Shown here piece after piece: positions 68 to 43,700 of a stretch of 43,859 nucleotides of DNA. Numbering within the stretch: position 1 is the first letter of the stretch; each line of letters begins with the position of its first letter. The notes below the pieces were generated by a model, which was not told where the DNA came from, did not search any database, and saw only the letters and a list, made by a program, of their open reading frames with translations. The translations under genes and the position numbers were made by a program. Source of the DNA: a virus. The stretch lies in the UHGV virus genome UHGV-0870948. One strand, 5' to 3'.

Positions 68-91
68 TTTGGTACGCAATTTGGTACACAA
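68..91 (+). repeat. Two tandem 12-bp direct repeats (TTTGGTACGCAA, TTTGGTACACAA); candidate integrase arm-type sites at the integrase-distal prophage end
   Basis: Core TGGTACRC is repeated here and three more times just upstream of int at 43654-43700, all in the same orientation. Confidence 0.4.
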
Positions 92-240
92 CACAATTTT
101 CACTTCAGCGGGTAGTCATCAAACTCACCATAACGAGCATCGTTAATGATGTATGTGATCACCACAAACATCACATCTGGACTAGTTCCGTTTTCATGCG
201 CAGGTATTTGTTCACGCCTCCCTTTCTGCAAATCCTAAAG

Positions 241-372
241 ATGAGATTTAAAGATGATGAACTGGCGCAATATAATTTGTGGCTGGATTATCTGGACGCA
301 CTGGAACTGGTTGATTCCTCCAGTGCGCCAGATATTGAATGGCCTACGCCTCCGGCTGTTCAGGCCAGATGA
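241..372 (+). pseudogene. Inverted C-terminal remnant of a tail fibre assembly (Tfa) gene
   Basis: Translation ...[32 protein letters not shown] parallels the C-terminus of the minus-strand Tfa (...[30 protein letters not shown]); only about 44 codons, convergent with the intact tfa. Confidence 0.45.
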
Positions 373-955
373 TATCCGGCGCGGTGCTGGTATCTGTTGC
401 CGTCACCGCGTCAATGTAATCCAGCACGGCGTTAAGTCGGGTTGTTTCTGCCTGCGTCAGCTTCCGCCCGGCCTGCAATTTCAGTTGAATCAGACTGATG
501 GAAGCCATTGCAGCATCAATCAGTGACTGTCGCTGTGCTTCCGCCGCTTCTACTGCGGCGCTATGCTGTGCCTCAGTATCCGTCACCCATTTTTGACCAT
601 CCCATTTATCATATGGCGTTAACTGGGGGATAGTGGTTGTATTTTCAGGGTAATCACCCGGAGCTGTGATTTCTTTTGATTCTCCTGTTTCGGTGCTAAA
701 GACGATTTCACCGCGATGGTCTGGCACATATTCCCATGAGTTAAAATCTGCAGAACGGCAGATTGCATAACCAGCTTTATGTGTAACTGGTGCATCTAAA
801 CAAGAACATGCCGGGATACCGACACCAACGGCAAGATATTCAGTTGATGTGGAAATATATTCCCGCGTTTCACCGCTGTAGTTGTAAACGGTGATGAAGC
901 CAGCTTCTGTTGCGAATCCGTTTTCATCTAAGGTGATTTTTTTTGTGGTCATCAT
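344..955 (-). CDS. Tail fibre assembly protein (Tfa)
   Basis: 203-aa ORF directly downstream of the tail fibre gene with 4-nt overlap; characteristic Tfa C-terminus ...[11 protein letters not shown]. Confidence 0.8.
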
Positions 956-1758
956 GCTGCCCTTACAATGTAGTTAAATGCAATGTTGCGCGGCCTTGTT
1001 TCAGCTGATGTTCTGGCACTCCTGGATAAATCAAGTGTGATACTATAGAAACTAAATGCACTACCAGCTGATGGAGCGGCATATTTAACCCCAGAACTAG
1101 AACCAATATTAAAAACTCCAGATGCTGAGAGAGAAGACCCCATAGTGTTATCACTCAGAGAACCCGTAACATTTTGCATAGCGTCAAGTTGTTCGCTTAA
1201 TAAAGCGCGTCCACTATCAACATCACGCCCGTCATCCCAGCCACGAATAAACTCACCACGTAAATCAGGCAATTTATTTGTCGGATAAACTTTTGCCAGT
1301 TCTGGATACTCTTCAGCAGAAAAAGGCGCTCCATTGCATTTCAGCCAGCCCGTTGGAGGAGTGGCTGAAGGCCACGGAACAGGTATGCCAACTGGTAACG
1401 CTGAGCCTTCTCCCAAACCAAGGTTTTCGAGAGCCGTTTTCACCGTGCCATCCGATTTGATATCACCAAACGGATTCTTGCGGCTCAGGTATTCAACAGC
1501 AAACCCCGATCCCAGCAATTCAACAAAACCGGGCAGATCACCATTATCAAGCACATCCCGTTGCGTTTTGTCACTTACAAACTGGGCCAGAGCTGCAGCA
1601 ATAAAGCTGGCCTGCCGAATAACCTTATTGACTTGCGCACTGGATGCTTTCCCTGCTGTAAATCCGGATAAAAGCGCAGGCAACGCTTCCCATTCCTCCT
1701 GCGACATAACATTGGCATTTCGATCAGTTGCAAACGCTTTAAAGTCATTTTTCGCCAT
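952..1758 (-). CDS. Tail fibre protein
   Basis: [36 protein letters not shown]..., Gly/Ser-rich C-terminus, followed by Tfa; start taken at the internal ATG overlapping the upstream stop. Confidence 0.7.
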
Positions 1759-2438
1759 CAGAGTAATACTCCCCATGCCCCTACATCAAAACCACTGATG
1801 AATTCGTTATCCATATCAAAACCAAAAAATTTAGAGCCTTCAGATGGAGTTTCCACCGAAGGTGTTTCAATGCCCCCCGCCCATACCCCGGCGGCTTTTA
1901 CTGTGAGATACCCCTGTTTAATTGCCGCAATTAACTCACGCGATACATCTGAAATATCAGTATCAGGAAAGACCCAGACCGATATCGTCATGTCCTGGTT
2001 ATCGACTATCTGCATTCGCAGCCCGGATCCTGCTGTTGCAGCGTCAAGAATTGCCGGAAGCGAATCATTCCGTCCGTCCCAGTTATTAATCGCAATCTTC
2101 GCTTTAAGGATGACACGATAAGTTTCATCGCTGAGGTACATGTATCCGGAATCAGGATCGTATGGCCCCTGCCATACACCCTGATCATATCCAAGCCCGT
2201 CGGTATCCCAGCTGAAATAGACACCTGAGATAGGCTGGCTGACAACACGGCTACGTCCGATCCACAATCCCAGAATGTCAAGTTGCACACCAACCGCAGA
2301 GTCAATATCAAATGCAGTAATCAGCCCTCTGGTGGCAGCCGCAACATCAATAAGTGGCCGGGTCATCAGATCAACATGCGCAAGAAATTTAGGTTTGGTG
2401 GCGTGGTAGTTCGTGATTAGTTCGGTGTATTTGCTCAT
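1758..2438 (-). CDS. Phage tail/baseplate protein (YmfQ-like, precedes tail fibre)
   Basis: 226-aa ORF between the baseplate J-like gene and the tail fibre gene; translationally coupled to both. Confidence 0.5.
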
Positions 2439-3634
2439 GACTCCACCGTTATAACGATATTTTCCGGGGTACAGGACGCAGATTCGTTGTATCTGATATC
2501 AATGTTTGATGACGACAAAGCCCCCGGGGATTTCCCAATCGTCAGTTCCTGAATATCGTAATAGCGTGCATTCCCGCCACTCACCACGCCAAGATTCGCC
2601 GGTGAGTAAATGCGACTTAAAAGGACCGAATCACCAATCGTCAAACTATTGATATAGTCGGAAATAGCCTGCTGGATCTGCTGCCCTATCTGTGAGGTAT
2701 AACCCGTAAAAACTTTTAATTTAATCCGGGCATAAACAGGCACATCACTGGAACGCGAGAATTTGATTACATGGGGATTGCCGTATTTATCCGGAACCGT
2801 AACGGATGTTGTACCGTGAGTGGCTGTCCCCTGGCCTTTATTCCCTCTGATAGCCTGAGCAATATCCGTCACATCACCGCCATCCACAATTACAGCAACA
2901 GAGTGTGGCGGTAACCCGTTACCGTCCTCCGAACCAGTATCGTTTTCATAGAGTTTGTGGCGGGTTACACCGGTAACATTAGAAACAGCACCATCCAGTG
3001 CTTCAAATGGGGTTATTGATGGCAACGCAACACTTTGCGACTGACGGATACGTAACTCAGCATCAGTTTCTGCCGGAGAACCAACAGTAGCCGCAGCAGG
3101 ATTAGTTACCGAAACCCAGCCACGGGTTGGCGTATTAATTTCAGTGATAGTTCCAGCCAGCGCCGCCACTGCACCACTGACGGAACATGTTGCGGTCGCC
3201 ATCACTGTACCATCCACGCCGACCACCACTGAAGCAGGCAAACGCCATATCACATTATTACTGTCTTTCACGCTGCCATTAATGATGGTTGTTCCGGCAG
3301 TTCCTGTAAGAAGCAAATCAACCGTAGAGTTCGTCGCGCCTTTACGTGAAATACCATTTATTTTCACGTTACTGGTCAGTGCAGCCCCATAGCCGGTTGC
3401 CGGTGAAAAACAGTTGTAGACAGTTATCGCCATATTATTGGCATCATGAATCGCCAGCGCCATCAGAGCCACCATCTGGCCGTCTTTGCTGTCCGGTTCG
3501 AGGTAGGCATCACTGCCATAAATCTGCTGAAAATAGCTAATCAGGGTGCTGAGTATCGTCTGATAATCAGGCGCACTGATCCCCTCCGCGGTTACCTTTG
3601 CAGATAAACCGAGAGAATCAAGGTTCAGAGCCAT
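2435..3634 (-). CDS. Baseplate J-like protein
   Basis: 399-aa ORF in the conserved position after the small baseplate protein; family assignment from memory. Confidence 0.65.
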   Translation of the reverse strand: MALNLDSLGLSAKVTAEGISAPDYQTILSTLISYFQQIYGSDAYLEPDSKDGQMVALMALAIHDANNMAITVYNCFSPATGYGAALTSNVKINGISRKGATNSTVDLLLTGTAGTTIINGSVKDSNNVIWRLPASVVVGVDGTVMATATCSVSGAVAALAGTITEINTPTRGWVSVTNPAAATVGSPAETDAELRIRQSQSVALPSITPFEALDGAVSNVTGVTRHKLYENDTGSEDGNGLPPHSVAVIVDGGDVTDIAQAIRGNKGQGTATHGTTSVTVPDKYGNPHVIKFSRSSDVPVYARIKLKVFTGYTSQIGQQIQQAISDYINSLTIGDSVLLSRIYSPANLGVVSGGNARYYDIQELTIGKSPGALSSSNIDIRYNESASCTPENIVITVES

Positions 3635-3987
3635 TACGCCTCCGATGTAACAGTCGTTATTCCATAGAGAGTGTCGATTTCAGCGGAAAACATGACACGT
3701 CGGGTCGTGGTATCCACCGTCGTATTGAAAGAGAGGATTGATTTAACGCCCTGCGTTTCGAGGATGCGCTTACGGATCGCCAGGTTGTAAGTTTCTGGTT
3801 TTTGCCTGCCCAGCACGGACTGGATCCACGGTGTTCCCTCTGTGGTATCAAGAAACCATTGCCCATACCACAATTCGAATCGCGTTTTCACAGCCTGCGC
3901 TACGGCCTCAGGCGAGTTAATCAGCCAGGTGTCATCACCGCTGCCAAAGGTGTAATCGCCATCGGCGTCTTCACGTCTGTATCGCAT
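3634..3987 (-). CDS. Small baseplate-associated protein (gp46/W-like)
   Basis: 117-aa ORF coupled between the spike and J-like genes. Confidence 0.45.
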   Translation of the reverse strand: MRYRREDADGDYTFGSGDDTWLINSPEAVAQAVKTRFELWYGQWFLDTTEGTPWIQSVLGRQKPETYNLAIRKRILETQGVKSILSFNTTVDTTTRRVMFSAEIDTLYGITTVTSEA

Positions 3988-4596
3988 CAGTTTACCCCGT
4001 CGGTACTGCTTCCACCACGCTGAACACCACCATGAGTGTGTGTATCATCGATTGGCTTGCCATTAGCCTTCACGCTCCCCAAAAACTCAACAGCACCAGT
4101 GATTTTTGAAGCCACACCAGAAACCACAGACCCCACCATGCCCCCCATCCAGGTTAACAGGCCATGAATGGTTACTTTCTCAGAAAAATCAGCCAGAGGG
4201 GCAACCACATCAAGACCACCTGGAGCGACAATTTTAATTTTCCTGGTATCAGGATTAAGCTCAAAATAGGTGCTGCCGTCATCACTACGCAACTGTGTGG
4301 CACTGGTATTAATACCGCTAATCTTCCTTGCCTGCGACTGGGGACCGACAATACAAAACGCATCCGATAAATCATGCATTCTGTCATCGACCGACTCCTG
4401 TATCCCGCCACTCTGCCACCAGAAATCAATACAACGATCGGCAAAAATCACCAAACATTCATCACCGGCTTTAACTGGGAACGTTAGCGTACATCCTCCG
4501 CCGCGCGGGAATACCACTGGCACATCCACCAGCAATGGGTAATTTTTGGTAATGCGGTTGCCGTCATTATCCTTTTCAACCGAACGGATAGCAGGC
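3987..4596 (-). pseudogene. Baseplate spike protein (gpV / Mu gp45-like), 3' portion separated from its 5' end by the IS66-family insertion
   Basis: Frame continues ...PAIRSVEKDNDGNRITKNYPLLVDVPVVF...; the PA codons lie in the left TSD copy and rejoin in frame with the fragment at 7138-7288. Confidence 0.7.
4589..4596. repeat. Target-site duplication, left copy (TAGCAGGC)
   Basis: Identical 8-mer abuts both ends of the IS66-family element. Confidence 0.8.
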
Positions 4597-4626
4597 GTAA
4601 GCGTCAACGGAGCACCGTATTGACGC

Positions 4627-6240
4627 TTATTTATTAGTGAGTACTACGTTCCATGGCAGGAGTTCGTCAACTCGGTTGGAAGGCCATTCCGGCAGTACGC
4701 TCAGGATATGGCGCAGATACGCTTCCGGATCGATACCATTCAACCGGCAGGTGCCGATCAGCCCGTACAACAGTGCACCACGCTCGCCTCCGTGATCGCT
4801 ACCGAAGAACACGTAATTTTTCTTTCCGAGACAGACTGCACGAAGCGCTCTTTCCGCTGTGTTATTGTCCGCCTCCGCCAGACCGTCATCACAGAAGTTG
4901 CACAACGCAACCCAGTGCTTCCTGATATACCGGAACGCATCTCTCAGACGGCATTTTTTCGATAACGTGTGTTCTTTCTCCTGCATCAGCTTATACAGGG
5001 AAGTCAGTAGCGGTTTACTCTGCATTTGCCTGACCGCCAGGCGTTCAGACACCGGCAACCCGCGTATTTCGTGCTCAATGGCGTACAGTTCGCCGATTAG
5101 TTTCAGTGCTTCTTCCGCCGTCGCGCTTTTGGTACTGATATATACATCGTGGATTTTGCGCCGTGCATGAGCCCAGCATCCTGCTTCCGTCAACGCGCCG
5201 CCTTCACGTTCGGCACTGAACAGCCGATCGTAACCTGCGAACGCATCTGCCTGCAGGATACCCCGGAAGGGACGAAGGTGTTGCTCCGGATGTTTACCCT
5301 GATGGTCCGGTGAGTAGGCGAACCAGACCGCCGGAGGTTCTGGCGAACCGGCATTTCGGTCATCCCGGACATACGTCCAGATATATCCTGTTTTCGCCTT
5401 CTTCCTGCCCGGTGCCAGTACTTTTACTGGTGTGTCATCAGTGTGAACCTTGCGGGTGTTCATCACATAACTGTACAGGGCATCATTCAGCGGAGTCATT
5501 AACTGGCAGCACGCATCAACCCAGTTGGAGAGTAAGGCACGGCTCAGTTCGACACCCTGGCGGGCAAAGATTTCACTCTGACGATACAGTGGCAGGTGTT
5601 CGCAGTATTTTCCCGTTAACACGCGGGCAAGTAACCCCGGGCCCGCGATACCACGCTCTATCGGACGGGATGGTGCCGGTGCTTCAACGATGCAGTCACA
5701 TTTTGTACAGGCTTTTTTTACCCGTTCTGTGCGGATCACTTTCAGGGCGCTGCTCACCAGTTCCAGTTGTTCTGCGCTGACTTCCCCCAGATAATCCAGC
5801 TCACCGCCACACTCCGGGCAACAGCTTTCTTCAGGCTCCAGGCGGTATATTTCACGGGGGAGATGTGCCGGTAACGGACGACGATGGCGCGACTGTCGCA
5901 ACTGGCGGGGAACCAGCGGGTCATCCTCACGCCCACTGTAACGATCGCTTTCCTGCTCGCGTTGTTTCAGCAGGGCTTCAGCCTGTTCAACCTCACGACG
6001 CAGTTTTTCAGAACGGGTTCCGAACAGCATCCGGCGCAGTTTTTCTATCTGAGCCCGCAGATGCTCTATTTCCCGTTCATCTTCTTCGATCTTTTCTTCG
6101 GCACGTGCCAGTGCAGAGCGCAGGAAGGCCTCCGTCTCTTCAACCAGACTCAGTTGCTGGTCTTTCTGACGGAGGGCTTCAGCCTGCTCAGAGAGCAGCC
6201 TTTCCAGCTCAGCGATGCGAATGAGGTATTTCTGACTCAT
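4627..6240 (-). CDS. tnpC: IS66-family transposase TnpC
   Basis: 537-aa ORF with N-terminal coiled-coil, CxxC...CxxC zinc motif and conserved IS66 transposase core. Confidence 0.85.
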   Translation of the reverse strand: MSQKYLIRIAELERLLSEQAEALRQKDQQLSLVEETEAFLRSALARAEEKIEEDEREIEHLRAQIEKLRRMLFGTRSEKLRREVEQAEALLKQREQESDRYSGREDDPLVPRQLRQSRHRRPLPAHLPREIYRLEPEESCCPECGGELDYLGEVSAEQLELVSSALKVIRTERVKKACTKCDCIVEAPAPSRPIERGIAGPGLLARVLTGKYCEHLPLYRQSEIFARQGVELSRALLSNWVDACCQLMTPLNDALYSYVMNTRKVHTDDTPVKVLAPGRKKAKTGYIWTYVRDDRNAGSPEPPAVWFAYSPDHQGKHPEQHLRPFRGILQADAFAGYDRLFSAEREGGALTEAGCWAHARRKIHDVYISTKSATAEEALKLIGELYAIEHEIRGLPVSERLAVRQMQSKPLLTSLYKLMQEKEHTLSKKCRLRDAFRYIRKHWVALCNFCDDGLAEADNNTAERALRAVCLGKKNYVFFGSDHGGERGALLYGLIGTCRLNGIDPEAYLRHILSVLPEWPSNRVDELLPWNVVLTNK

Positions 6241-6270
6241 GGCCGTTTTTATAATGCGGTCAGGAGTTTT

Positions 6271-6621
6271 TTACAACATTGTCAGTGCGTTAAGGCGGGA
6301 TGTTTTTGGCTGACGCCAGTCCAGCTTATCGAGGAGCATTGCCAGTTGCGAGCGGGTAATGGATATCTTACCGTCACGCACCGCAGGCCAGATAAACTGA
6401 CCTTCCTCAAGGCGTTTGGTGAACAGGCACAGACCATCAGCATCAGCCCACAGGATTTTAATCGTGTCTCCCCGTCGGCCACGGAAGATAAACAGGTGAC
6501 CGGAGAAGGGGTTATCATCCAGCACATGCTGTATTTGCTCCCCCAGACCGTTGAAGGATTTACGCATATCAGTAACGCCGGCAACGAGCCAGATACGGGT
6601 ACCTGATGGGAGTGAAATCAT
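6271..6621 (-). CDS. tnpB: IS66-family accessory protein TnpB (Orf2)
   Basis: 116-aa ORF MISLPSGTRIWLVAGVTDMRKSFNGL... typical of IS66 Orf2; overlaps tnpA. Confidence 0.8.
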   Translation of the reverse strand: MISLPSGTRIWLVAGVTDMRKSFNGLGEQIQHVLDDNPFSGHLFIFRGRRGDTIKILWADADGLCLFTKRLEEGQFIWPAVRDGKISITRSQLAMLLDKLDWRQPKTSRLNALTML

Positions 6622-7055
6622 CGTCCCCTCCCGGTCAGCTCACGGATCAACACCGTGAGCAGCTCTGGTGAAGGATTTTCCAGCATCATTTTACCGTAAT
6701 GGAATTCCACATGGCAGGAAGCTGCACAAGCAACTGATAATGCCTCCGGAGCAGGAGCATCTGTAGCACAGCGCGTGGTGTCGATAAGTTCCACTGGAAC
6801 CAGAGTCGGAGAGGCCGGAAAAGATTGTGATACTGTAGGGCCTACAATAGTTGGAGGCATTCTGCGAGAAATACGTCCTTCTCTTTGCCAGAGGCGTAGC
6901 CATTTAAAAATCAGGTTGTTATCAACGCCATGTTCCCGGGCCAGTTGTGCAACATTGGCATTTGGTTTCGAAGCCAGTTCAACCATATGAAGTTTAAATT
7001 CATTAGAAAATATCCGGCGGGTTCCGGAGCGCCAGTCTGTAGGTTTATCCATCAA
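6618..7055 (-). CDS. tnpA: IS66-family accessory protein TnpA (Orf1)
   Basis: 145-aa ORF with HTH-like segment (FSNEFKLHMVELASKPNANVAQLAREHGV), first gene of the IS66 operon. Confidence 0.75.
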   Translation of the reverse strand: MMDKPTDWRSGTRRIFSNEFKLHMVELASKPNANVAQLAREHGVDNNLIFKWLRLWQREGRISRRMPPTIVGPTVSQSFPASPTLVPVELIDTTRCATDAPAPEALSVACAASCHVEFHYGKMMLENPSPELLTVLIRELTGRGR

Positions 7056-7137
7056 TAGAACTCCGTCTAATTTAGAAGGAGCTCTAATTTAGTCTGCAAG
7101 GAGCAGGTGTTACAGACGGCATTGGCTTTACGCTTAC

Positions 7138-7145
7138 TAGCAGGC
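7138..7145. repeat. Target-site duplication, right copy (TAGCAGGC)
   Basis: Identical to 4589-4596. Confidence 0.8.
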
Positions 7146-7288
7146 TGCACAACTGCCGTCACCGCATCAGGATCGAATGACTGAATAATGCCAGGCAAGG
7201 CGACACGGATCTGGTTCTTTGTTGTTTCCCGTTCAGATTTGAATGTTTCGGCAAGGTCGCCGCTGCGGGTCTGGTCAGATACTGCCAT
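7138..7288 (-). pseudogene. Baseplate spike protein, 5' portion (first 50 codons) truncated by the IS insertion
   Basis: MAVSDQTRSGDLAETFKSERETTKNQIRVALPGIIQSFDPDAVTAVVQPA, then reads into IS sequence; rejoins in frame with 3987-4596 when the IS and one TSD copy are removed. Confidence 0.7.
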
Positions 7289-7307
7289 TTAGTAGGCTCC
7301 AGAAAGC

Positions 7308-7330
7308 AAAAAACCCGCCGAAGCGGGTTT
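7308..7330. terminator. Rho-independent (bidirectional) terminator downstream of the HEPN-like gene
   Basis: AAAAAA-CCCGC-CGAA-GCGGG-TTT: GC stem flanked by an A-run on one side and a T-run on the other. Confidence 0.65.
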
Positions 7331-7347
7331 GATAACGTTAATTTTAT

Positions 7348-7743
7348 TCATGAAACTCTAGCAGACTTTAGCTGTTCCCAGCGCTCAAAATAGAGTTCAG
7401 CAGCCTCGATTGCATCCTGTCCCATCTCTTTCGAAACAGTCACATTCGTCAGATCATAGTCAGCTTCATTTCTAGCATCCCGCCACTGGCGAAGTACGAA
7501 AGCTAGGGATTTCAGTGTATTTGTCGGGTATGGCTCTGATTTGCACTCTGAGGGCGTTGACATATAACCCACAGTATTTTTGTGATGCTCATGGGTAAAA
7601 TGCGGTATGGCAGTAAGTGAGCTAATAGACTCATGTAACATACTGTAATACGCCCTTGAGATAGCGCTTCGAAATCCACTCTCAATATTTTCAGACAGAC
7701 ATAATCGAGCGGTATCGAGAATCTGATTGCTAGTTACCGACAT
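7348..7743 (-). CDS. HEPN-like small helical protein (candidate toxin/RNase component)
   Basis: 131 aa; AISRAYYSMLHE (R-x6-H, resembles the conserved HEPN helix) and LRQWRDARNEADY; overlaps the upstream gene by 14 nt; region visibly AT-richer than flanks. Confidence 0.5.
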   Translation of the reverse strand: MSVTSNQILDTARLCLSENIESGFRSAISRAYYSMLHESISSLTAIPHFTHEHHKNTVGYMSTPSECKSEPYPTNTLKSLAFVLRQWRDARNEADYDLTNVTVSKEMGQDAIEAAELYFERWEQLKSARVS

Positions 7744-30045: not shown

Positions 30046-30237
30046 TTATTTTTTATGCCTGTAACCCCATTCTTCCAGCAACCTTGCGGCGTACCACCCA
30101 AGAAACAAAGGAAAGAACATTACAATGAGATATTCCCCGCCACGGTCAATGTTCGAAATTGACCAGATTACGATGTAACCAGTGCAGGACAGGAATATTA
30201 CAAACCCCAAAAAGCTACTTCGTCGACTCATGCTCAC
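30046..30237 (-). CDS. Small membrane protein (hypothetical)
   Basis: 63 aa with two hydrophobic segments. Confidence 0.4.
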   Translation of the reverse strand: MSMSRRSSFLGFVIFLSCTGYIVIWSISNIDRGGEYLIVMFFPLFLGWYAARLLEEWGYRHKK

Positions 30238-36235: not shown

Positions 36236-36706
36236 ATGACAAAATCATGGAGCGTACCTTTTCCTGAATCAGAAACTGAACATGATGGAATGCCTGTTTT
36301 CTGGAGATTCCAAGCGACAGTTGAAGAAGATGGAATCAAAATATTCGCACTTCAATATATAGCTTTTCATCAGACAGAGCATTATGCATGGTTGGTTCCT
36401 GCGAATTGGATTGTTAATTTTAAACCAGCACCAAATCAGTGGTTACAGGAATGGAAACAAAGGAGAAATAGATATGCAATTAAGAAAGTAGCAAAAAATG
36501 CAGAAAGATCTTTTGCATTCCCAACGAAGAAACTTGCCATTGAGAGTTTATTGCGCCGGAAGAAATACCATTTAATGAGAATCAAACAAGATTTGGCTGT
36601 TGTATCAACTCTTGTTGATGGGATGAAAAATATTGATACATCAACACCAGATATTGAATATAACTTTGGACACAACCAAGAAACAGAAAATTGGGTATTT
36701 TATTAG
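36236..36706 (+). CDS. Hypothetical protein in an AT-rich segment downstream of N
   Basis: 156 aa; RBS TTGAGGTGAG identical to that of the preceding small ORF; visibly AT-rich codon usage. Confidence 0.5.
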   Translation: MTKSWSVPFPESETEHDGMPVFWRFQATVEEDGIKIFALQYIAFHQTEHYAWLVPANWIVNFKPAPNQWLQEWKQRRNRYAIKKVAKNAERSFAFPTKKLAIESLLRRKKYHLMRIKQDLAVVSTLVDGMKNIDTSTPDIEYNFGHNQETENWVFY

Positions 36707-36810
36707 TACGAATAAGCACTGTGTATTCATTCCAACGAGTGAATACACGGAGCAATGTCGCTCGTAACTAAACAGGAGCCGACTTGTTCTGATTATTGGA
36801 AATCTTCTTT

Positions 36811-36836
36811 GCCCTCCAGTGTGAGGGCCTTTTTAT
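36811..36836 (+). terminator. Rho-independent terminator (tL-like)
   Basis: GCCCTC-CAGTGT-GAGGGC followed by CTTTTTAT. Confidence 0.55.
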
Positions 36837-36897
36837 ATGCATACCAATAACGCTTCACTCGAGGCGTTTTTCGTTATGTATAAATAAGGAGCACACC

Positions 36898-37038
36898 ATG
36901 CAATATGCCATTGCAGGGTGGCCTGTTGCTGGCTGCCCTTCCGAATCTTTACTTGAACGAATCACACGTAAATTACGTGATGGATGGAAACGCCTTATCG
37001 ACATACTTAATCAGCCAGGAGTTCCCAAAAATGGATAA
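36898..37038 (+). CDS. Small hypothetical protein
   Basis: 46 aa from ATG preceded by TAAGGAGC. Confidence 0.4.
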   Translation: MQYAIAGWPVAGCPSESLLERITRKLRDGWKRLIDILNQPGVPKNG

Positions 37039-37144
37039 AACACTTATGGCTATCCAGACTAAATTCACTATCGCCACTTTTATTGGCGATGAAAAGATGT
37101 TTCGTGAAGCCGTAGAAGCCTACAGAAAATGGAGGTCAAAATGA
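37031..37144 (+). CDS. Small hypothetical protein
   Basis: 37 aa (MDKTLMAIQTKFTIATFIGDEKMFREAVEAYRKWRSK), overlaps neighbours. Confidence 0.3.
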   Translation: MDKTLMAIQTKFTIATFIGDEKMFREAVEAYRKWRSK

Positions 37145-37329
37145 TTCCGGTAGAACTGGCGAAAACTCCAGAGTTAAGTCGATTAAAAAGAGAATATCAC
37201 ATTGCTGAGGCTCGTTACTGGCGTAAAGCGGGAGATAAATCAAAGAAACAACTTTGTTTATGGCAGGCGCAAAGAGAGCGCATGAATGAGCGCGAATTTC
37301 TTCCCCCCCCATCCGAATTACCATTCTGA
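37141..37329 (+). CDS. Small hypothetical protein
   Basis: 62 aa from ATG preceded by GGAGG. Confidence 0.4.
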   Translation: MIPVELAKTPELSRLKREYHIAEARYWRKAGDKSKKQLCLWQAQRERMNEREFLPPPSELPF

Positions 37330-37337
37330 GGTGAATT

Positions 37338-38018
37338 ATGGGAACTGCGACATTAATACTCGGTGAGTCTGGCACCGGAAAATCAACCAGCATGAGAAAT
37401 ATCAATCCAGAGGAAGCAATACTTATAAAACCAATAGGCAAGCCACTACCATTTAAATCAAAAGACTGGCTTGCATGGGATGCCAGAGCCAAAAAAGGAA
37501 CCGTAGTTACCACTGACAAATGGGACGTAATAGTTGCCGTAATTAAGCGTGCTCACGAATACGGGAAAAGAATCGTTATTGTTGATGACTTCCAGTATGT
37601 GATGAGCAATGAGTTTATGCGCCGCTCAGAAGAAAAATCGTTTGATAAATTCACTGAGATAGGCCGTCACGCATGGGAGGTGATTAAGGCTGCGCAGGAT
37701 GCACCTGATGACCTGAGAGTCTATTTTCTTGCGCACACCGAAGAAACCCCTATGGGGCGCGTGAAAATGAAGACTATCGGCAAAATGCTGGACGAGAAAA
37801 TCACTGTCGAAGGCATGTTTACTATAGTTCTTCGCACCCTTACCCGTGATGACCAGTTCTTTTTCACCACGAAAAACAACGGTGCAGACACTGTTAAATC
37901 CCCAATTGGAATGTTTGACTCCAATGAGATTGATAACGATCTCTCTTTCGTCGATGCCACTGTTTGTGATTACTACGGCATCAATAATGTTCATCAAATT
38001 AAGGAAAACGCCGCATGA
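37338..38018 (+). CDS. P-loop ATPase (Sak4-like recombination protein)
   Basis: Walker A GESGTGKST near the N-terminus and Walker B IVIVDD; 226 aa. Confidence 0.6.
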   Translation: MGTATLILGESGTGKSTSMRNINPEEAILIKPIGKPLPFKSKDWLAWDARAKKGTVVTTDKWDVIVAVIKRAHEYGKRIVIVDDFQYVMSNEFMRRSEEKSFDKFTEIGRHAWEVIKAAQDAPDDLRVYFLAHTEETPMGRVKMKTIGKMLDEKITVEGMFTIVLRTLTRDDQFFFTTKNNGADTVKSPIGMFDSNEIDNDLSFVDATVCDYYGINNVHQIKENAA

Positions 38019-38602
38019 GCAACGTGATTTTTACTTATAACGAAGAAGCAGCACTGACCGCAGGGCAAGGTGGTTTTATTAACGAAACTGGCGCTCATAT
38101 CATTACCATTACTGAAGCAGAACTAAAGCAATCAGAAAAAGGCGCAAAATTTATTGAGTTTTCTGGCGAATCCGACGACGGACGTAAAATCCAATATCTT
38201 AGCGTCTGTGTTCAGAAAAATGACGGAACGGAAAACAAATTTGGCGCAAATGTCGTTCACGCCATGATGGGGTGTGCCGGGATTGGACAATTAACGCAGC
38301 ATATGGTTTCCGCCAGTAAATTTGTTGCACCTGAATTTCATGGAAAGAAAATCGGGTTAGTGCTCCAGAAAGTATTAACCACAAACAAAAAGACTGGCGC
38401 AGACAGCTACCAGATGGAAATACGCATCCCGTTTATTGCACAAACAGGTCAAACCCTTAAAGAAAAGGCAGAAGGCAAGCAACCAGAAACTATCGCCAAC
38501 ATGGTTGCCAATCTCAAAGATAAAGACAATCGCTCTAAAAACGTAAGCCAGAATCATGCAGATGATTATGGTTACAGCCAGAACGATTACCCTCCTTTCT
38601 GA
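38015..38602 (+). CDS. SSB-like phage protein with acidic C-terminal tail
   Basis: 195 aa coupled to the ATPase; C-terminus ...DDYGYSQNDYPPF resembles the SSB acidic tip. Confidence 0.45.
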   Translation: MSNVIFTYNEEAALTAGQGGFINETGAHIITITEAELKQSEKGAKFIEFSGESDDGRKIQYLSVCVQKNDGTENKFGANVVHAMMGCAGIGQLTQHMVSASKFVAPEFHGKKIGLVLQKVLTTNKKTGADSYQMEIRIPFIAQTGQTLKEKAEGKQPETIANMVANLKDKDNRSKNVSQNHADDYGYSQNDYPPF

Positions 38603-38625
38603 TTACTGAAAATAAGGCTCCCATT

Positions 38626-38922
38626 ATGCCAGCGCCTCTGTATGGTGCGGATGACCCGCGCAATTGCTCCGGTAGCTCCAAGGCGGAGGTGCTGGAAAAT
38701 ATCAAAAACATTTTCGACACGTTTATTGATCTGCCACCAGAAACAAAAGCAGAACGGATGTACCGACGCGATATACAACTCGCGTTAAAAGATGAGAAGG
38801 ACCGAACAAACGAAACAGCAATGAGACCGTTGCGAAAAGCGACAATAGACAAATTCCCTGAATATATCGACCCGCGCCTGCGTAATTACCGCTCACGCTA
38901 TGGCGCTATCAGTAATGACTGA
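38626..38922 (+). CDS. Hypothetical early protein
   Basis: 98-aa ORF. Confidence 0.4.
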
Positions 38923-38932
38923 GGAATTTACC

Positions 38933-39100
38933 ATGAGAGGACTTGCATACAATCCCGGCATTCTTCCGGCAGAAATGATTATTCGCCAACGCGTAAAGCC
39001 AATGCCATCGAGAGAGGAATTGCTTAAGAGAAATAGTTTCGGTTCTGTTAATGACAACAAATATCTGAATGCGATGTGGCGTAAAGGAGGCAGCCAGTGA
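38933..39100 (+). CDS. Small hypothetical protein
   Basis: 55 aa from internal ATG with GAGG RBS. Confidence 0.35.
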
Positions 39101-39741
39101 ATAACCGTTTTTACATGATGTGCTTGCGTGAAACTGTGGGTAATAACGCCTCATTCCATTGCCATAACGGCAATGGTTACAGTTCTGATATCGATCGCGC
39201 TCATGTTTACACGCTGGAAGAAGCCCAAAAAGCCTGGAATTGTGGACGAGATATCGATCAGCCTGTTTGCGCTGATAGCGTGGATGCAATGGCAGTGTGG
39301 CACGTTGATTGCCAGTACATCCCTACAGAAAACCTGATTGAGCCAGATTGCACTGCGTATGTAGCCTACAAAAAAGGTAGCTGGAACGGCAACGACGTCT
39401 ACTGGCTTCAACATGGTGGGCTACCAACCGATGACTTCAGTCAAGCAACCATCTTTAGCGTCGCTAACAAAAACGAGCCAGGAATAGTTTGGTTGCCATT
39501 TTCCATTGCTGATGCAGCAAAGCGCCGGACGTTCAATATCAATAACTTTAACCGCAGAACAATGGTTCAGGGCGCAGGTTTGGTCATGCCTGACTGGTTG
39601 AAAAAGCAAAACAGAAGAAAGAAGTCGCGAAGCGGGAAAGTGCGCTGGAATTGTCCGCATTGCGGAAAAATAACCTGGCAGTACAGCCCATATGATTTTG
39701 AAGGCTGTAGTGATTACAACTGTGAAGGATGGCGAGAATGA
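39097..39741 (+). CDS. Hypothetical protein with C-terminal Cys cluster
   Basis: 214 aa; C-terminus CPHCG...CSDYNC suggests a zinc ribbon. Confidence 0.45.
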
Positions 39742-40538
39742 CAATTGACTATCAGGCACTGCGTGAAAAAGCAGAGAAAGCAACTAAAGGAAGCTACATC
39801 GTAGGGAATACATCTGTTAACCAGCACGGCAATTTAACAGGAGTTTTTGTTTGTCAAAAATGGAAAGGAGAACCCGGTGGCGTGATTGCAGAATGTCACG
39901 TTAACTGCCTGGTTGAAACAGATGCTCAGGCTTACGCAAACGCTGAATTCATAGCAGAGGTTAACCCAGCTACCATGCTGGCACTGCTGGATGAACGGGA
40001 AGCCCAAAACAAGTGTATCGCAGAACTGGAAAAAATCGCCACTGACTATGCACTGAAATTTCAGAAAGCCCAGGACGCATTAAAGCACGTTGTTTTGATG
40101 CGCAAATCAGAGCAGGAAGCCGCAGAGAACAACCTTATTGATAGTGAATGCCATGTTGCTGAACTGGAAGAAGCGCTACGCGATAAGCAGGCGTTACTTG
40201 AAGCCTCAGAAAAGCGCAACGCGAAATTACAAAGCGAGAATGCATACATCCGCAACCGGTTCAAAGAACTGGACCTATTAATCGGGAAAAACATTCTGGT
40301 CATGCAGGCTGCCATTATCGAATGGCAGGCAACTGGCGACGCTAAGAGCGGACTGGCATGGATTTATAACACACTGTTTGGCCCTGGCGAATTGCCGGAC
40401 GAATCTGAGAAAGATGCTCAGGCCTACTTTAATCGCAAATATGCACCGATTGACGAAAAGCTTATGGCGCTTCACAAGTGGTTTTGGGAACAAAGTGAAG
40501 CCGAGCGCGTCGCTGGCATTTGCATCAAAGGAGAGTGA
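39729..40538 (+). CDS. Ea22-like coiled-coil protein
   Basis: 269 aa with long central coiled coil; typical of lambdoid early-left regions. Confidence 0.5.
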   Translation: MARMTIDYQALREKAEKATKGSYIVGNTSVNQHGNLTGVFVCQKWKGEPGGVIAECHVNCLVETDAQAYANAEFIAEVNPATMLALLDEREAQNKCIAELEKIATDYALKFQKAQDALKHVVLMRKSEQEAAENNLIDSECHVAELEEALRDKQALLEASEKRNAKLQSENAYIRNRFKELDLLIGKNILVMQAAIIEWQATGDAKSGLAWIYNTLFGPGELPDESEKDAQAYFNRKYAPIDEKLMALHKWFWEQSEAERVAGICIKGE

Positions 40539-40539
40539 G

Positions 40540-40920
40540 ATGAGCGCTATAACCAAAGAACGTATCAAATTATTCATTAAAAATCCGCTTGATAACGGAC
40601 TTACTCGTGGCGAACAAATGGAACTGGCACGAATTGCACTGACATCGCTGGAAGCAGAGCCGGTGGCATGGACTGATGAAGAGGAACTGCGCGATGTCAA
40701 GCAGTATGGTTTCGGTGAGATATTTCAGTGCCCGCCAGATAAATACGCGGACTCGCGTCGTGTAATCCCGCTGTATCGCGAGCTGCCAGCGCAGGTAGTC
40801 CCGGAGGAAATCAGCATGTCCTCATCACTGCCTCTCATGAGTGATCAGTTGATGGCGTTGGGGTATGTGAAGGGCTGGAACGCCTGCCGTGCCGCTATGC
40901 TTCAGGGGAAAGGAGAGTGA
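40540..40920 (+). CDS. Hypothetical early protein (shares N-terminal motif with the DUF551-like gene)
   Basis: 126 aa from ATG with AAGGAGAG RBS; contains ELARIALTSLEAEPVAWT. Confidence 0.45.
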   Translation: MSAITKERIKLFIKNPLDNGLTRGEQMELARIALTSLEAEPVAWTDEEELRDVKQYGFGEIFQCPPDKYADSRRVIPLYRELPAQVVPEEISMSSSLPLMSDQLMALGYVKGWNACRAAMLQGKGE

Positions 40921-40921
40921 T

Positions 40922-41119
40922 ATGGACAAAAACACACCTGCTTACTGGAGTTTATCACTTGATACTGAATGCCCAAAATGCGGCCACAATTTCGATCTGC
41001 TTTGCGATGCTGATTTCTGGGAATTTTCTGGAGCAAAACAGGCATGTGAAGAAATAAAAGGTTACGAAACATGCTGTCCAGAATGTAACCATGAATTTAA
41101 AACAGATTTCGTGTATTGA
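40922..41119 (+). CDS. Small zinc-ribbon protein
   Basis: 65 aa; CPKCGH...CCPECNH. Confidence 0.45.
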   Translation: MDKNTPAYWSLSLDTECPKCGHNFDLLCDADFWEFSGAKQACEEIKGYETCCPECNHEFKTDFVY

Positions 41120-41129
41120 GGCATAACAA

Positions 41130-41660
41130 ATGACCACTATTACCAGAGAACAAGCTCTGAAAATTATTGAGGCAGCCGATGAGGTTATTAGTGCGCTTGC
41201 CGGAACTCACGAGGATGTTCACCCTGGTAGCGATAACATGCTACGCCTGTGGGATGACCTGAATGACCGTTACGCGCCGCCGGAAGTTGTGCGTGAGCTG
41301 GCACGGATTGCGCTGGCATCGCTGGAAGCAGAGCCTGTAAGCCAAACTTACAAGTTGAACGAGCTGTCGGGCAACTCTCAGGTAACTCCGGATGGTTGGA
41401 TAAGCTGTAGTGAGCGAATGCCTATAATCGGCGAGCTAAATTGGAGAACTGGTTTTCCTTTGCTGATTACGTGTGAGATCGGCGTTATACCAGCTTATTA
41501 CGGCTTTGTGAGCGTTAATGGGAATAAGCATTATGGTTTTATGGAGAGTCTTAAATACGGAGACGATAACGGCAACCATCCTCAAACTAATGAATATGGT
41601 CTGATTAGCAATGTCACACACTGGATGCCGCTACCGGAACCGCCGCAGGAGGTGAAGTGA
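41130..41660 (+). CDS. DUF551-like phage protein
   Basis: 176 aa; C-terminal ...HWMPLPEPP; N-terminal ELARIALASLEAEPV motif. Confidence 0.5.
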   Translation: MTTITREQALKIIEAADEVISALAGTHEDVHPGSDNMLRLWDDLNDRYAPPEVVRELARIALASLEAEPVSQTYKLNELSGNSQVTPDGWISCSERMPIIGELNWRTGFPLLITCEIGVIPAYYGFVSVNGNKHYGFMESLKYGDDNGNHPQTNEYGLISNVTHWMPLPEPPQEVK

Positions 41661-41938
41661 TGGACTCCTTCGCGAAATATACGATTATTGACTGGATAGC
41701 ATTCCTTCAGGTTTTGCTCATCTGGTTTTATATGGCTTACAGGAGTGGACAGTGGATTGTCAGTGTAGCCTGTAGCAAGGGATGGCGTTGGTGGAACCGG
41801 AAGAACAAAAAAGCACTGGCATTGGATTCGTTTTACGAAGCATTCAATCTTAACAGCCTTCAGCCTGGTTCTGTCATTGTAGCCACCACTCAAAGCGGCA
41901 TGACCATTCAGATTCATAAACCAAAAGAGGAAAAATGA
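41657..41938 (+). CDS. Hypothetical protein with N-terminal hydrophobic segment
   Basis: 93-aa ORF coupled to the upstream gene. Confidence 0.35.
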   Translation: MMDSFAKYTIIDWIAFLQVLLIWFYMAYRSGQWIVSVACSKGWRWWNRKNKKALALDSFYEAFNLNSLQPGSVIVATTQSGMTIQIHKPKEEK

Positions 41939-42255
41939 TGTGGCCTATATGTGTTAATTGCGGACGGATGTGCCTATCTGGATGGTGCCGAAAGTGCGAC
42001 AAATGCACGAAGAAAAGACAATAACAATCCTCGAACTCGCGGGGATTTCTTTTATCTGAACTCGCTACAGCGAGTTTTGTTTTATGGAGATGATAAATGC
42101 ACTTCCGAGTCACAGGTGAATGGAATGGATAACCATTCAACAGAGTTATCGAAGCAGAGGACATCAACGACTGCTATGCCCACTGGATGCTGTGGGCGCA
42201 GATAGCACATGCAGACGTAACCAACATTCGAATTGAAGAACTGAAAGAACACCAA

Positions 42256-42279
42256 GCCGCCTGATGGCGGTTTCTTTTT
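42256..42279 (+). terminator. Rho-independent terminator ending the early-left operon
   Basis: GCCGCC-TGAT-GGCGGT followed by TTCTTTTTG. Confidence 0.6.
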
Positions 42280-42294
42280 GCCTGGAGAATTAAG

Positions 42295-42486
42295 ATGACC
42301 GATACCAGCCTGATTCCTGAGAAAGAAGTGATGAACAAGCTCGGTGTTTCATCACGTCAGACAATCTGGAACTATACCAAACGGCACGGATTTCCGAAGC
42401 CAGTCAGAACCCACCCCAAATCATACCTTCGTGAAGCTGTTGAGGGGTGGATTCTTAACGGTGGCGTTAATCAGAAATGCTCCTGA
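42295..42486 (+). CDS. xis: AlpA/Xis-family excisionase-like DNA-binding protein
   Basis: 63 aa, ...EVMNKLGVSSRQTIWNYTKRHGFPKPVRTHPKSYLREAVEGWI; convergent with and overlapping the int 3' end. Confidence 0.6.
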   Translation: MTDTSLIPEKEVMNKLGVSSRQTIWNYTKRHGFPKPVRTHPKSYLREAVEGWILNGGVNQKCS

Positions 42487-43645
42487 TGTGCCAGAACAAT
42501 TTATCAGCGTGAAGCTCATACGCTTTGCGCTGAGCCTCTATCCAATCGTGTTTATTGTATACTGACATTATCCCGCCAAGTTCATGACCGAGCATTCGCT
42601 CAGTAACATGAGGCTCGACATTCATCTCGGACAGACGTGTAACAAGCGTTCTTCTGAAATCATGTGTTCGCCAGTAACCTAGGTCCACCCCTCCCCTTAT
42701 TCGATTTACGAATCGGTTGGCTGCAGCGATGCTGATCGGTTTGTTTATGTCTTCTCCAGGGAAAAGAACATCATTGTACGTTGTCATGGCCTTTTCGAGG
42801 AAAGGCTTAATTTGTTCGAAGATTGGACGGCGGATAACATTACCCATCTTGCTATGCTCTTTCGGTACGGTCCATACGTTGTCCAGCAGGTCAAACTCTG
42901 TCTTTGTTGCCAGCCTAAGCTCTGAGAGCCTCGCCCCCCACAGCATAAGCATCTGATGAAGTAGCTTATTTGACGTAGACGCACGGCTTCTTTCAATAGC
43001 AAGCCAAATCTTAGCCAGTTCGTGATACGACAGTACCCGATCCCCTACCTCAGCGCGGGAGCCGAAGTCCCTTGGTTGGATGCTCATAATTGCGCAACTA
43101 TCTATCAACTGACGCCGCATGCACCAACTTATTGCTGATCTTAGTTGACTTAGCACCTGTCTTGCTCGGCGTGGATTATCTCTTTCTTCTTCGGTAAGCA
43201 GGTCAACCCATTGCTTAACCGTGATAGAAGATGCCGGACGATTAGGAAAGGCGTCATGCATGCGCTTCATAACCGTTGATCGGTAAAGTGCCTGGGTCTT
43301 TTCTCTGAGAGTTGTAGAGACGTAGTTGTCGAACCAGTAGTCGAGACACTGGGCGACCGTCATGGAGTTCTCCACCTTCTCTTCAAAATAAGTGCGTGGA
43401 TCCGTTCCTGAGAAATAGAGCTTTCGCAAGTCAGCAGTGATCTGTCTGGCATCCTTCAAAGACAGGGATGGGTATCGACCAAGCCCAAGTCGATTAGGCT
43501 TGCCATGCCAGCGATAGCGGTACTGGAACTGGATGACCCCCTTCGGTGAAATTCGTACGCTGAGGCCATCGGCATCAGCCACTTCTTGTGGGCCCGAATA
43601 TGGTTTACCATAAATAGTACGCAGTTTTGTGTCGCTTATAGCCAT
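42467..43645 (-). CDS. int: Tyrosine-type site-specific integrase
   Basis: 392 aa; C-terminal catalytic region with HDFRRT and LGH...SVYNKHDW (R...H-x-x-R...Y pattern). Confidence 0.9.
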   Translation of the reverse strand: MAISDTKLRTIYGKPYSGPQEVADADGLSVRISPKGVIQFQYRYRWHGKPNRLGLGRYPSLSLKDARQITADLRKLYFSGTDPRTYFEEKVENSMTVAQCLDYWFDNYVSTTLREKTQALYRSTVMKRMHDAFPNRPASSITVKQWVDLLTEEERDNPRRARQVLSQLRSAISWCMRRQLIDSCAIMSIQPRDFGSRAEVGDRVLSYHELAKIWLAIERSRASTSNKLLHQMLMLWGARLSELRLATKTEFDLLDNVWTVPKEHSKMGNVIRRPIFEQIKPFLEKAMTTYNDVLFPGEDINKPISIAAANRFVNRIRGGVDLGYWRTHDFRRTLVTRLSEMNVEPHVTERMLGHELGGIMSVYNKHDWIEAQRKAYELHADKLFWHIRSISD

Positions 43646-43653
43646 AAATAATA

Positions 43654-43700
43654 TTTGGTACGCTCAAAAATAATGGTTTGGTACACATCTGGTACACAAT
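43654..43700 (+). repeat. Three direct copies of the TGGTACRC arm-type motif immediately upstream of int
   Basis: TTTGGTACGCTC, TTTGGTACACAT, CTGGTACACAAT; same motif and orientation as 68-91. Confidence 0.45.

What the first reader, a model, noticed from the sequence alone, without database searches (positions are those of the whole stretch)
68..43700. TGGTACRC arm-type repeats at both ends suggest the att layout and a core site left of the window
Seen in sequence: two tandem copies at 68-91 next to the tail-fibre end and three copies at 43654-43700 directly upstream of int, all in the same orientation. By analogy with lambda, this predicts the left att core about 100 bp beyond the window start and the right core within roughly 43740-43830. 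No shared core repeat could be found inside the window.
Basis: partly seen in the sequence, partly recalled or inferred. Interest (0 to 1): 0.45.

Follow-up and report, generated by a model that had tools for sequence, protein, structure and literature searches.

The report
Integrase arm sites of sbcB-targeting phage
The repeated TGGTACRC motifs at the two ends of the window are real and are very probably the sites where the phage integrase grips the arms of its attachment site.

Summary
Observation confirmed. Five same-strand copies of TTTGGTACRCAA sit at 68-91 (two) and 43654-43699 (three). One stray copy lies elsewhere, against about 1.6 expected per window.

The window is one phage genome opened at its attachment core. 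Its two ends are contiguous in free phages mEp234 and HK140. The 13-bp core TTTCACGATTACG is window 1-13 and is annotated in GenBank as "attP type 2851". In lysogens the second copy follows base 43859 directly, inside codons 13-17 of sbcB.

The arm-site reading is well supported. Int has a P4-type arm-binding N-domain. In 27 distinct upstream regions of Int relatives (49-100% identity), three GTAC-centred sites keep near-constant positions: -50/-39/-16 from the int ATG in 26, about 10 bp closer in one. Every intact attP also has a tandem pair about 250 bp further out, and the motif drifts with Int divergence. Phage P4's annotated attP has the same 3-core-2 layout.

The triple abuts a conserved extended -10-like element, so Int autoregulation as in KplE1 is inferred. 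The long arm also carries a replacement 5' end for sbcB.

Ordinary biology: a new member of a known kind, low interest.

The parts
1..13 (+). 13-bp identity core TTTCACGATTACG shared by attP and attB (sbcB codons F13-E17). This is the single copy present in the window.
   Evidence: It is annotated as 'prophage attachment site (type 2851)' in mEp234 and as 'duplication due to insertion' at both ends of prophage 1717. The four-way alignment of attB, both junctions and attP is A1. The Sf101 paper PMC4159516 gives CGTAATCGTGAAA as the attP.
68..91 (+). Distal (short-arm) pair of arm-type sites, TTTGGTACGCAA and TTTGGTACACAA, in tandem with 12-bp spacing, starting 54 bp after the core.
   Evidence: The pair is retained in HK140 and in L015, whose distal arm is about 19% diverged. 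Equivalent pairs lie at about -301/-289 in the other intact attPs. P4 has an annotated tandem pair 53 bp beyond its core.
43654..43699 (+). Proximal (long-arm) triple of arm-type sites at 43654-65, 43677-88 and 43688-99. In int sense the GTAC cores are at -16, -39 and -50 from the int ATG.
   Evidence: GTAC columns are invariant in the alignment of 27 unique upstream regions of Int relatives; untransformed positions are -50/-39/-16 (within 2 bp) in 26 and -38/-27/-7 in ENT39118.
42467..43645 (-). int: a P4-type tyrosine integrase with an N-terminal arm-binding domain, transcribed away from the att core.
   Evidence: Pfam Arm-DNA-bind_3 (residues 4-85, E 8e-18) plus Phage_integrase. It is 99% identical to the Int of phages 2851, 1717 and Sf101, 25% to P4 Int and 22% to KplE1 IntS.
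43698..43706 (-). Conserved extended -10-like element TGTGATATT immediately upstream of the first proximal arm site; candidate int promoter.
   Evidence: The block GTCCATGyGATATTG is conserved in most of the 27 sequences and degenerate in three. No -35/-10 consensus promoter was found by the scan. The promoter role is inferred.
43827..43859 (+). Phage-borne start codon plus 10 further codons (11 in all, MTDTDKQPTFL), in frame with the core; replaces the first 12 codons of sbcB after integration.
   Evidence: Reading. PGAP starts sbcB at this ATG in lysogen PV15-279. In 8 of the 10 relatives that could be scored, the start codon is the first one in the frame at this position, and (Q/H)(P/L)TFLFHDYE is kept.
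43707..43847 (+). Same-strand TRRACAA / RRACA repeats at 43707, 43724, 43811, 43821, (43831) and 43841, partly phased at 10 bp. Candidate binding sites for the excision factor or another accessory protein.
   Evidence: Five of the 24 copies in the window fall in these 141 bp, all on the + strand. The positions are partly conserved in relatives. The function is inferred only.
42295..42486 (+). Candidate recombination directionality factor (AlpA/HTH_17-like, 63 aa), convergent with int and overlapping its 3' end.
   Evidence: Weak Pfam hits below the curated cut-offs: Phage_AlpA E 0.003 and HTH_17 E 0.008. The mEp234 homologue is annotated as excisionase-like HTH_17. PGAP calls it a helix-turn-helix regulator.
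100..234 (-). 3' remnant of an S24/UmuD-like peptidase gene; marks the outer edge of the short arm.
   Evidence: It is a PGAP pseudogene in TB06053. The intact gene occupies this position in HK140. The fragment has no Pfam hit of its own.

Best explanation
The window is a complete temperate-phage genome linearised exactly at its attachment core. Joined end to end, 43646-43859 plus 1-91 form a roughly 305-bp P4-type attP. The five TTTGGTACRCAA repeats are arm-type sites bound by the N-terminal Arm-DNA-bind_3 domain of Int. The catalytic domain acts at the 13-bp core TTTCACGATTACG (window 1-13), which is identical to codons 13-17 of host sbcB. Bridging of arm and core by the two-domain Int assembles the recombination complex. 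Integration places the pair at the tail-fibre junction and the triple at the int junction. The triple sits between a conserved extended -10-like element and the int ATG, so bound Int should repress its own promoter, as shown experimentally for KplE1 IntS. The core-proximal end of the long arm supplies a new start codon and N-terminus, so sbcB stays intact. Shown here: the positions, the core, the contiguity of the window ends, the Int domains, and the conservation and drift of the sites. Inferred: Int binding, autoregulation, and binding sites for the excision factor.
For: The window ends are contiguous in mEp234 and HK140. The core is annotated and duplicated in prophage 1717. The empty K-12 site, both junctions and attP align as BOB', BOP', POB' and POP'. 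The left flank of a 97%-identical prophage end is dacD plus an sbcB stub that abuts window base 1. Int carries an arm-binding domain. De novo repeat finding in relatives with 54-61% identical Int gives their own motif with spacings 252/11/24 and 244/11/24, against 251/11/23 here. Twenty-seven unique upstream regions keep GTAC in three aligned columns (positions -50/-39/-16 within 2 bp in 26, -38/-27/-7 in ENT39118), whatever the host target. The motif changes from GTACCA to GTACA as Int diverges. In L015 the distal arm is about 19% diverged but both GTACCAAA units are kept. P4's record annotates three arm repeats at the int start, a core, and a tandem pair 53 bp beyond it. KplE1 autoregulation is described in PMC2951348.
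Against: There is no binding or genetic data for these sites. No strict IHF consensus occurs in the attP and no canonical -35/-10 promoter was found. The motif drift could partly reflect plain linkage with int rather than co-adaptation. The original phage 2851 paper could not be read, so whether the repeats were already noted there is unknown.
Confidence: 0.85

Rival explanations
1. One reading: lambda-like spacing, with the left core about 100 bp outside the window and the right core inside 43740-43830.
For: It rests only on the analogy with lambda's 2+3 arm sites. No tool result supports it.
Against: The core is window 1-13 and the second copy starts directly after 43859. No sequence within 43740-43830 is shared with attB beyond the sbcB-mimic similarity near 43845-43859.
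Confidence: 0.01
2. The repeats are operators for another regulator (the AlpA-like excision factor or a repressor) that controls the int promoter, and are not Int arm sites.
For: The triple lies on the presumed int promoter. In KplE1 the excision factor TorI also binds this arm.
Against: Two copies lie about 250 bp away, on the far side of the core, where no gene starts. That is the same place as the annotated arm repeats of P4. Int has a dedicated arm-binding domain. A separate repeat family (TRRACAA) is available for the excision factor.
Confidence: 0.08
3. The clustering is chance or a compositional artefact of an AT-rich intergenic region.
For: A degenerate 8-mer is expected about 1.6 times per window. 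With two mismatches the 12-mer is not enriched window-wide.
Against: The probability of five copies in about 314 bp is roughly 1.5e-12. All five share a strand. Positions are conserved across 27 diverged relatives.
Confidence: 0.01

Closest known systems
attP 'type 2851' of sbcB-integrating lambdoid phages (2851, 1717, Sf101, mEp234, HK544, HK140)
   Same: The 13-bp core is identical, Int is 99% identical, and the arms are 96-100% identical. The target is the 5' end of sbcB.
   Different: Nothing at the att/int module itself. The rest of the genome is a different mosaic, with SEN34/vB_EcoM-611R5-like virion genes. The records and the one paper that could be read annotate only the core, or a 147-bp 'putative attP', and not the arm repeats.
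Satellite phage P4 attP/int (arm repeats annotated in NC_001609)
   Same: int is transcribed away from att. Three arm repeats lie next to the int start, then a core, then a tandem pair with 12-bp spacing 53-54 bp beyond the core. Int has the Arm-DNA-bind_3 domain.
   Different: Int is only 25% identical. The motif is GGGGGCAYA, not GYGTACCA. P4's third proximal repeat is inverted and covers the ATG, whereas here it is direct and 11 bp upstream. The long arm here is about 48 bp longer. The record annotates a 20-bp core; from my own knowledge P4 targets a tRNA-Leu gene, whereas this phage targets a protein-coding gene.
KplE1 (CPS-53) IntS/TorI module and relatives HK620, Sf6, CUS-3 (Panis et al. 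2010, PMC2951348)
   Same: The int promoter lies inside the int-proximal att arm and is overlapped by arm-type sites. The excision-factor gene is uncoupled from int. There is a tandem pair of arm sites in the other arm.
   Different: IntS is 22% identical. The motif is GGGTAAAA, in both orientations near intS. The target is argW. Autoregulation is shown experimentally there and only inferred here.
Lambda attP (P1, P2 / P'1-P'3)
   Same: A two-domain Int and a 2+3 count of arm-type sites on either side of a short core (general knowledge; Ross and Landy 1982, as cited in PMC2951348).
   Different: In lambda the triple lies on the short arm next to the 3' end of int, and int is co-transcribed with xis toward att. 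Here the triple lies on the long arm at the 5' end of int. Lambda Int uses a different arm-binding domain family (PF09003, as cited in PMC2951348).

Membership tests
attP type 2851 (sbcB-integrating) | 13-bp core CGTAATCGTGAAA upstream of int | tested here: met
   Window 1-13 is its reverse complement and lies 215 bp upstream of the int ATG across the junction.
attP type 2851 (sbcB-integrating) | Integrase near-identical to 2851 Int | tested here: met
   99.0% identity to phage 2851 Int and 99.2% to 1717 and Sf101 Int by tblastn.
attP type 2851 (sbcB-integrating) | Prophage junctions inside the 5' end of sbcB, with the core duplicated | tested here: met
   Junctions of 1717, TB06053 and PV15-279 and the empty K-12 site. 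The int arm lies next to sbcB in all 12 records listed, out of 582 of 5426 E. coli genomes that carry it.
Arm-site-dependent (two-domain) tyrosine integrase attP | Int carries an N-terminal arm-type DNA-binding domain | tested here: met
   PF13356 Arm-DNA-bind_3, E 8e-18, 64.8 bits against a cut-off of 27.
Arm-site-dependent (two-domain) tyrosine integrase attP | A repeated motif, distinct from the core, on both arms | tested here: met
   2+3 copies, conserved in position across relatives.
Arm-site-dependent (two-domain) tyrosine integrase attP | Int N-domain physically binds the repeats | not testable with these tools
   Needs gel-shift or footprinting experiments.
Arm-site-dependent (two-domain) tyrosine integrase attP | Sites for a DNA-bending host factor (IHF) between arm sites and core | tested here: inconclusive
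   There is no WATCARNNNNTTR match in the window's attP. By eye, relatives phi346 and L067 have one between the pair and the core (sequences).
P4-type attP layout | int start codon faces the core; three proximal repeats, a core, and a distal tandem pair with 12-bp spacing | tested here: met
   Window geometry compared with the P4 annotation.
P4-type attP layout | One proximal repeat inverted over the int ATG | tested here: not met
   All five copies here are direct. The nearest ends 9 bp upstream of the ATG.
P4-type attP layout | Target is the 3' end of a tRNA gene | tested here: not met
   The target is the 5' end of the sbcB coding sequence. That P4 targets a tRNA gene is from my own knowledge; no call checked it.
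KplE1-type autoregulated integrase gene | int promoter lies within the int-proximal att arm and overlaps Int sites | tested here: inconclusive
   The geometry requires it: only 214 bp of phage DNA lie upstream of int in a lysogen. A conserved extended -10-like element abuts site 1, but no canonical promoter was found and no transcription start site is known.
KplE1-type autoregulated integrase gene | Int represses its own transcription | not testable with these tools
   Needs a reporter fusion with and without Int.
Lambda-type attP layout | Triple of arm sites on the short arm next to the 3' end of int | tested here: not met
   The triple lies 160 bp from the core, at the 5' end of int.

The most novel reading that the evidence does not exclude
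A whole clade of P4-type integrases (49-100% identical to this one, with echoes in cdtI at 33% and in P4 at 25%) uses a near-constant 3-core-2 arm-site scaffold. The site positions stay nearly fixed, to within 2 bp in 26 of the 27 regions, while the motif drifts from GTACCA to GTACA and the host target changes (sbcB, a PfpI-like gene, and others not identified here). The scaffold would combine three functions in about 300 bp: recombination, self-repression of int through an extended -10 promoter, and rebuilding of the interrupted host gene with a phage-encoded N-terminus.
Probability: 0.5. Interest if true: 0.3.

Novelty: new member of a known kind. Interest (0 to 1): 0.2.

Why it matters
The result gives a usable map of the attachment site of a common E. 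coli and Shigella prophage family. The module is present in 582 of 5426 complete E. coli genomes and includes Stx1a-, Stx2a- and Stx2c-converting phages. The map shows where Int should bind, where int is probably regulated, and that sbcB is probably not inactivated in lysogens. It also corrects a plausible but wrong extrapolation from lambda. The biology itself is standard site-specific recombination.

Tried and rejected
- The sigma-70 promoter and terminator scan of 43400-43859 found nothing. In 1-400 it found only one match, at 247-276, unrelated to att.
- A strict IHF consensus search over the circular junction found nothing.
- The exact motif GYGTACCA was searched in relatives with 49-61% identical Int and was absent. 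This led to finding their own GTACA motif at the same positions.
- A literature search for the motif strings returned only unrelated papers.
- The original phage 2851 paper (PMC2583581) is not held, so prior description of the repeats could not be excluded.
- KplE1 IntS was tested as a possible close homologue, because some relatives integrate at argW. It is only 22% identical, so it serves as a mechanistic analogue only.
- The 12-mer with two mismatches is not enriched window-wide, so no further degenerate copies are claimed.
- The Pfam scan of the 100-234 remnant found nothing. Its identity rests on PGAP's pseudogene call and on HK140.
Full report
**1. The observation**

TGGTACRC occurs six times in the window. 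Five copies are on the + strand, at 70-77, 82-89, 43656-63, 43679-86 and 43690-97. One is on the - strand at 30089-96. Shuffles give 1.58 copies per window.

The five clustered copies extend to a 12-mer, TTTGGTACRCAA: 68-79 and 80-91 match exactly, and 43654-65, 43677-88 and 43688-99 have 1-2 mismatches. The stray copy does not match the flanks. Five or more copies in the roughly 314-bp att region has a Poisson probability of about 1.5e-12.

The right-hand triple lies 11-52 bp upstream of the start codon of the ORF at 42467-43645 on the - strand.

**2. What the window is**

- Megablast of the two window ends against phage records shows they are adjacent in free phage mEp234. Window 43400-43859 maps to 21570-21111 and window 1-249 maps to 21110-20862. 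HK140 shows the same contiguity.
- mEp234 annotates its bases equivalent to window 1-13 as "prophage attachment site (type 2851)".
- Prophage 1717 annotates the same 13 bp, TTTCACGATTACG, as "duplication due to insertion" at both ends. One copy corresponds to window 1-13. The other lies immediately after the base equivalent to 43859.
- The Sf101 paper gives CGTAATCGTGAAA as the attP of phage 2851 and confirms integration at the 5' end of sbcB by junction sequencing (PMC4159516).

The window is therefore one genome-length of a temperate phage, opened at the crossover core and carrying one core copy.

**3.

- *Extend leftward.* E. coli TB06053 has a prophage end 97% identical to window 1-623. 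Immediately left of the base equivalent to window 1 are the first 12 codons of sbcB, then its upstream region and dacD.
- *Int-side junction.* In lysogen PV15-279 the base after 43859 starts TTTCACGATTACG and continues into sbcB.
- *Empty site.* K-12 sbcB reads ...ACCTTTTTG TTTCACGATTACG AAACCTTTGGC....
- *Four-way comparison.* Alignment A1 shows the classic pattern for attB, the two junctions and attP, with a 13-bp identity segment. attB contains the inverted repeat GTTTC-ACGATTAC-GAAAC around this segment (my reading).

The observation that no core repeat exists inside the window is explained, because only one copy is present.

**4. Are the repeats arm-type sites?**

*Int domains.* Int has the P4-type arm-binding domain (PF13356, residues 4-85, E 8e-18) plus the catalytic Phage_integrase domain.

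*Relatives with 49-61% identical Int.* tblastn found SEN34, Klebsiella ST340-VIM1phi10.1, Stx phage phi346, Proteus Brookers and Cronobacter ENT39118. They lack GYGTACCA. De novo repeat finding gives each its own GTAC-centred motif, such as TGAGTACATAA or ATTGTGTACAT. Start-to-start spacings are 252/11/24 in SEN34 and 244/11/24 in Brookers. The window, read in int sense across the junction, gives 251/11/23.

*Wider sampling.* A scan of viral contigs, pooled with the window and the five phage-record relatives, gave 27 distinct upstream regions at 49-100% Int identity.
- All 27 have GTAC in three aligned columns. Untransformed positions are -50/-49, -39/-38 and -16/-15 from the ATG in most, -52/-41/-17 in phi346 and Brookers, and -38/-27/-7 in ENT39118, which the alignment fits with gaps.
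- Every intact attP also has a tandem pair, at about -301/-289 in most and at -296/-284 or -280/-268 in three.
- Contigs that are prophage junctions lack the pair, as expected, because it lies at the other prophage end.
- The motif is GYGTACCA down to about 74% identity, mixed at 68-73%, and GTACA at 61% and below.
- In L015 (Int 100% identical) the distal arm is about 19% diverged. Both GTACCAAA units are intact, and within the 8-bp motif only the degenerate Y position changes.

*Annotated precedent.* The P4 record annotates "attP arm sequence repeats". Three lie at the int start, one of them inverted over the ATG. Then come a 20-bp core and a tandem pair with 12-bp spacing that begins 53 bp beyond the core. 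The window's pair begins 54 bp after its core. P4 Int is 25% identical. Phage cdtI (33%) shows TTGTACAT repeats in a comparable arrangement.

Together these results make the arm-type reading strong, although binding itself is inferred.

**5. How it most likely works**

Joined, 43646-43859 plus 1-91 form a roughly 305-bp attP. Reading in int sense from far to near:
1. the distal pair;
2. 54 bp of spacer;
3. the 13-bp core;
4. 160 bp of long arm;
5. the proximal triple;
6. 8 bp, then the int ATG.

*Recombination.* The two-domain Int would bridge arm and core sites. Strand exchange must occur inside the 13-bp identity segment.

*Regulation of int.* int is transcribed away from the core, so in a lysogen only 214 bp of phage DNA lie upstream of it. 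The family alignment shows a conserved block, GTCCATGyGATATTG, directly upstream of site 1. This is an extended -10-like TGnGATATT at window 43698-43706 on the - strand. A transcript starting about 7 bp downstream would begin inside site 1, with sites 2 and 3 in the leader. Int occupancy should therefore repress int. This is the arrangement shown experimentally for KplE1 intS, and also reported for P4, in PMC2951348. IntS is only 22% identical, so KplE1 is an analogue, not evidence of membership. No canonical promoter and no strict IHF site were found, so these steps remain inferred.

*Excision factor.* A 63-aa AlpA/HTH_17-like ORF at 42295-42486 (+), convergent with int, is the likely excision factor, on weak Pfam hits and on annotation in mEp234 and PV15-279. 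A second repeat family, TRRACAA, has 5 of its 24 window copies in 43707-43847, all on the + strand and partly at 10-bp phasing. Partial positional conservation in relatives makes these repeats candidates for its binding sites.

**6. A feature of the long arm**

Window 43827-43859 reads ATG ACA GAC ACA GAT AAA CAA CCT ACC TTC CTC, in frame with the core. After integration it replaces host MMNDGKQQSTFL with MTDTDKQPTFL. PGAP annotates sbcB (474 aa) from exactly this ATG in a lysogen.

Of the 12 relatives compared, 10 could be scored. In 8 of them the start codon (ATG, TTG or GTG) is the first one in the frame, at this position; in the other two it is present further into a longer open frame. All ten keep TFLFHDYE, preceded by QP in most. 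The phage therefore rebuilds the gene it interrupts. The displaced original 5' stub reads into the short arm and stops after a few codons.

Most relatives at 68-94% Int identity sit in sbcB of other enterobacteria, where the core is CGTAATCGTGGAA. The Klebsiella group at 61% sits in the 5' end of a PfpI-like protease gene.

**7. Comparison with known systems, and novelty**

The att/int module is the known 2851 type: the core is identical, Int is 99% identical, and the arms are 96-100% identical. It occurs in 582 of 5426 complete E. coli genomes, and lies next to sbcB in all 12 records listed.

The remainder of the window is a mosaic. The virion genes are SEN34/vB_EcoM-611R5-like, and the early region is lambdoid.

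The layout is P4-like and differs from lambda. The triple lies on the long arm at the 5' end of int, and int and the excision-factor gene are uncoupled.

Neither the GenBank records seen nor the accessible literature mention the arm repeats. The original 2851 paper could not be read.

I rate this a new member of a known kind, of low general interest. Its practical value is a corrected and more complete att map for a common prophage family that includes Stx-converting phages.

Noticed in passing
window 43827-43859 (+): The phage arm encodes a start codon and 10 further codons (MTDTDKQPTFL) in frame with the core, which rebuilds sbcB after integration. PGAP starts sbcB here in a lysogen, and the feature is conserved in relatives with ATG, TTG or GTG starts.
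   Followed up: yes
window 43707-43847 (+) and 37-43 (+): A second same-strand repeat family (TRRACAA/RRACA), partly phased at 10 bp next to the core. These are candidate binding sites for the excision factor; 5 of the 24 window copies fall in 141 bp.
   Followed up: partly
window 43698-43706 (-): A conserved extended -10-like TGTGATATT directly upstream of the first proximal arm site, present across most of the Int clade. It is the likely int promoter, although no -35 was found.
   Followed up: partly
window 100-234 (-): A 3' remnant of an S24/UmuD-like peptidase gene. It is intact in HK140 at the same place and is called a pseudogene in E. coli TB06053.
   Followed up: partly
window 244-372 (+) versus 344-955 (-): A partial tail-fibre-assembly pseudogene faces the intact tfa gene. 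It looks like a relic of an alternative or invertible tail-fibre cassette. Homology to P2-like and Klebsiella phage tfa genes starts abruptly at base 250, where the att module ends.
   Followed up: no
L006, L071 (junctions) and L067 (free attP): Klebsiella phages with 61% identical Int integrate into the 5' end of a PfpI/DJ-1-like protease gene. Their site shares only GTAATC with the sbcB core, and they may also supply a substitute 5' end (one possible GTG frame, read by eye).
   Followed up: partly
L005 (Salmonella phage SEN34): SEN34 has the same 13-bp sbcB core and similar virion genes (82.7% identity). Its Int is only 60% identical and its arm motif differs (GAGTACA), so the same target is reached with a diverged arm code.
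   Followed up: partly
window 30089-30096 (-): A lone TGGTACGC copy with no flank similarity to the 12-mer; judged to be chance.
   Followed up: yes
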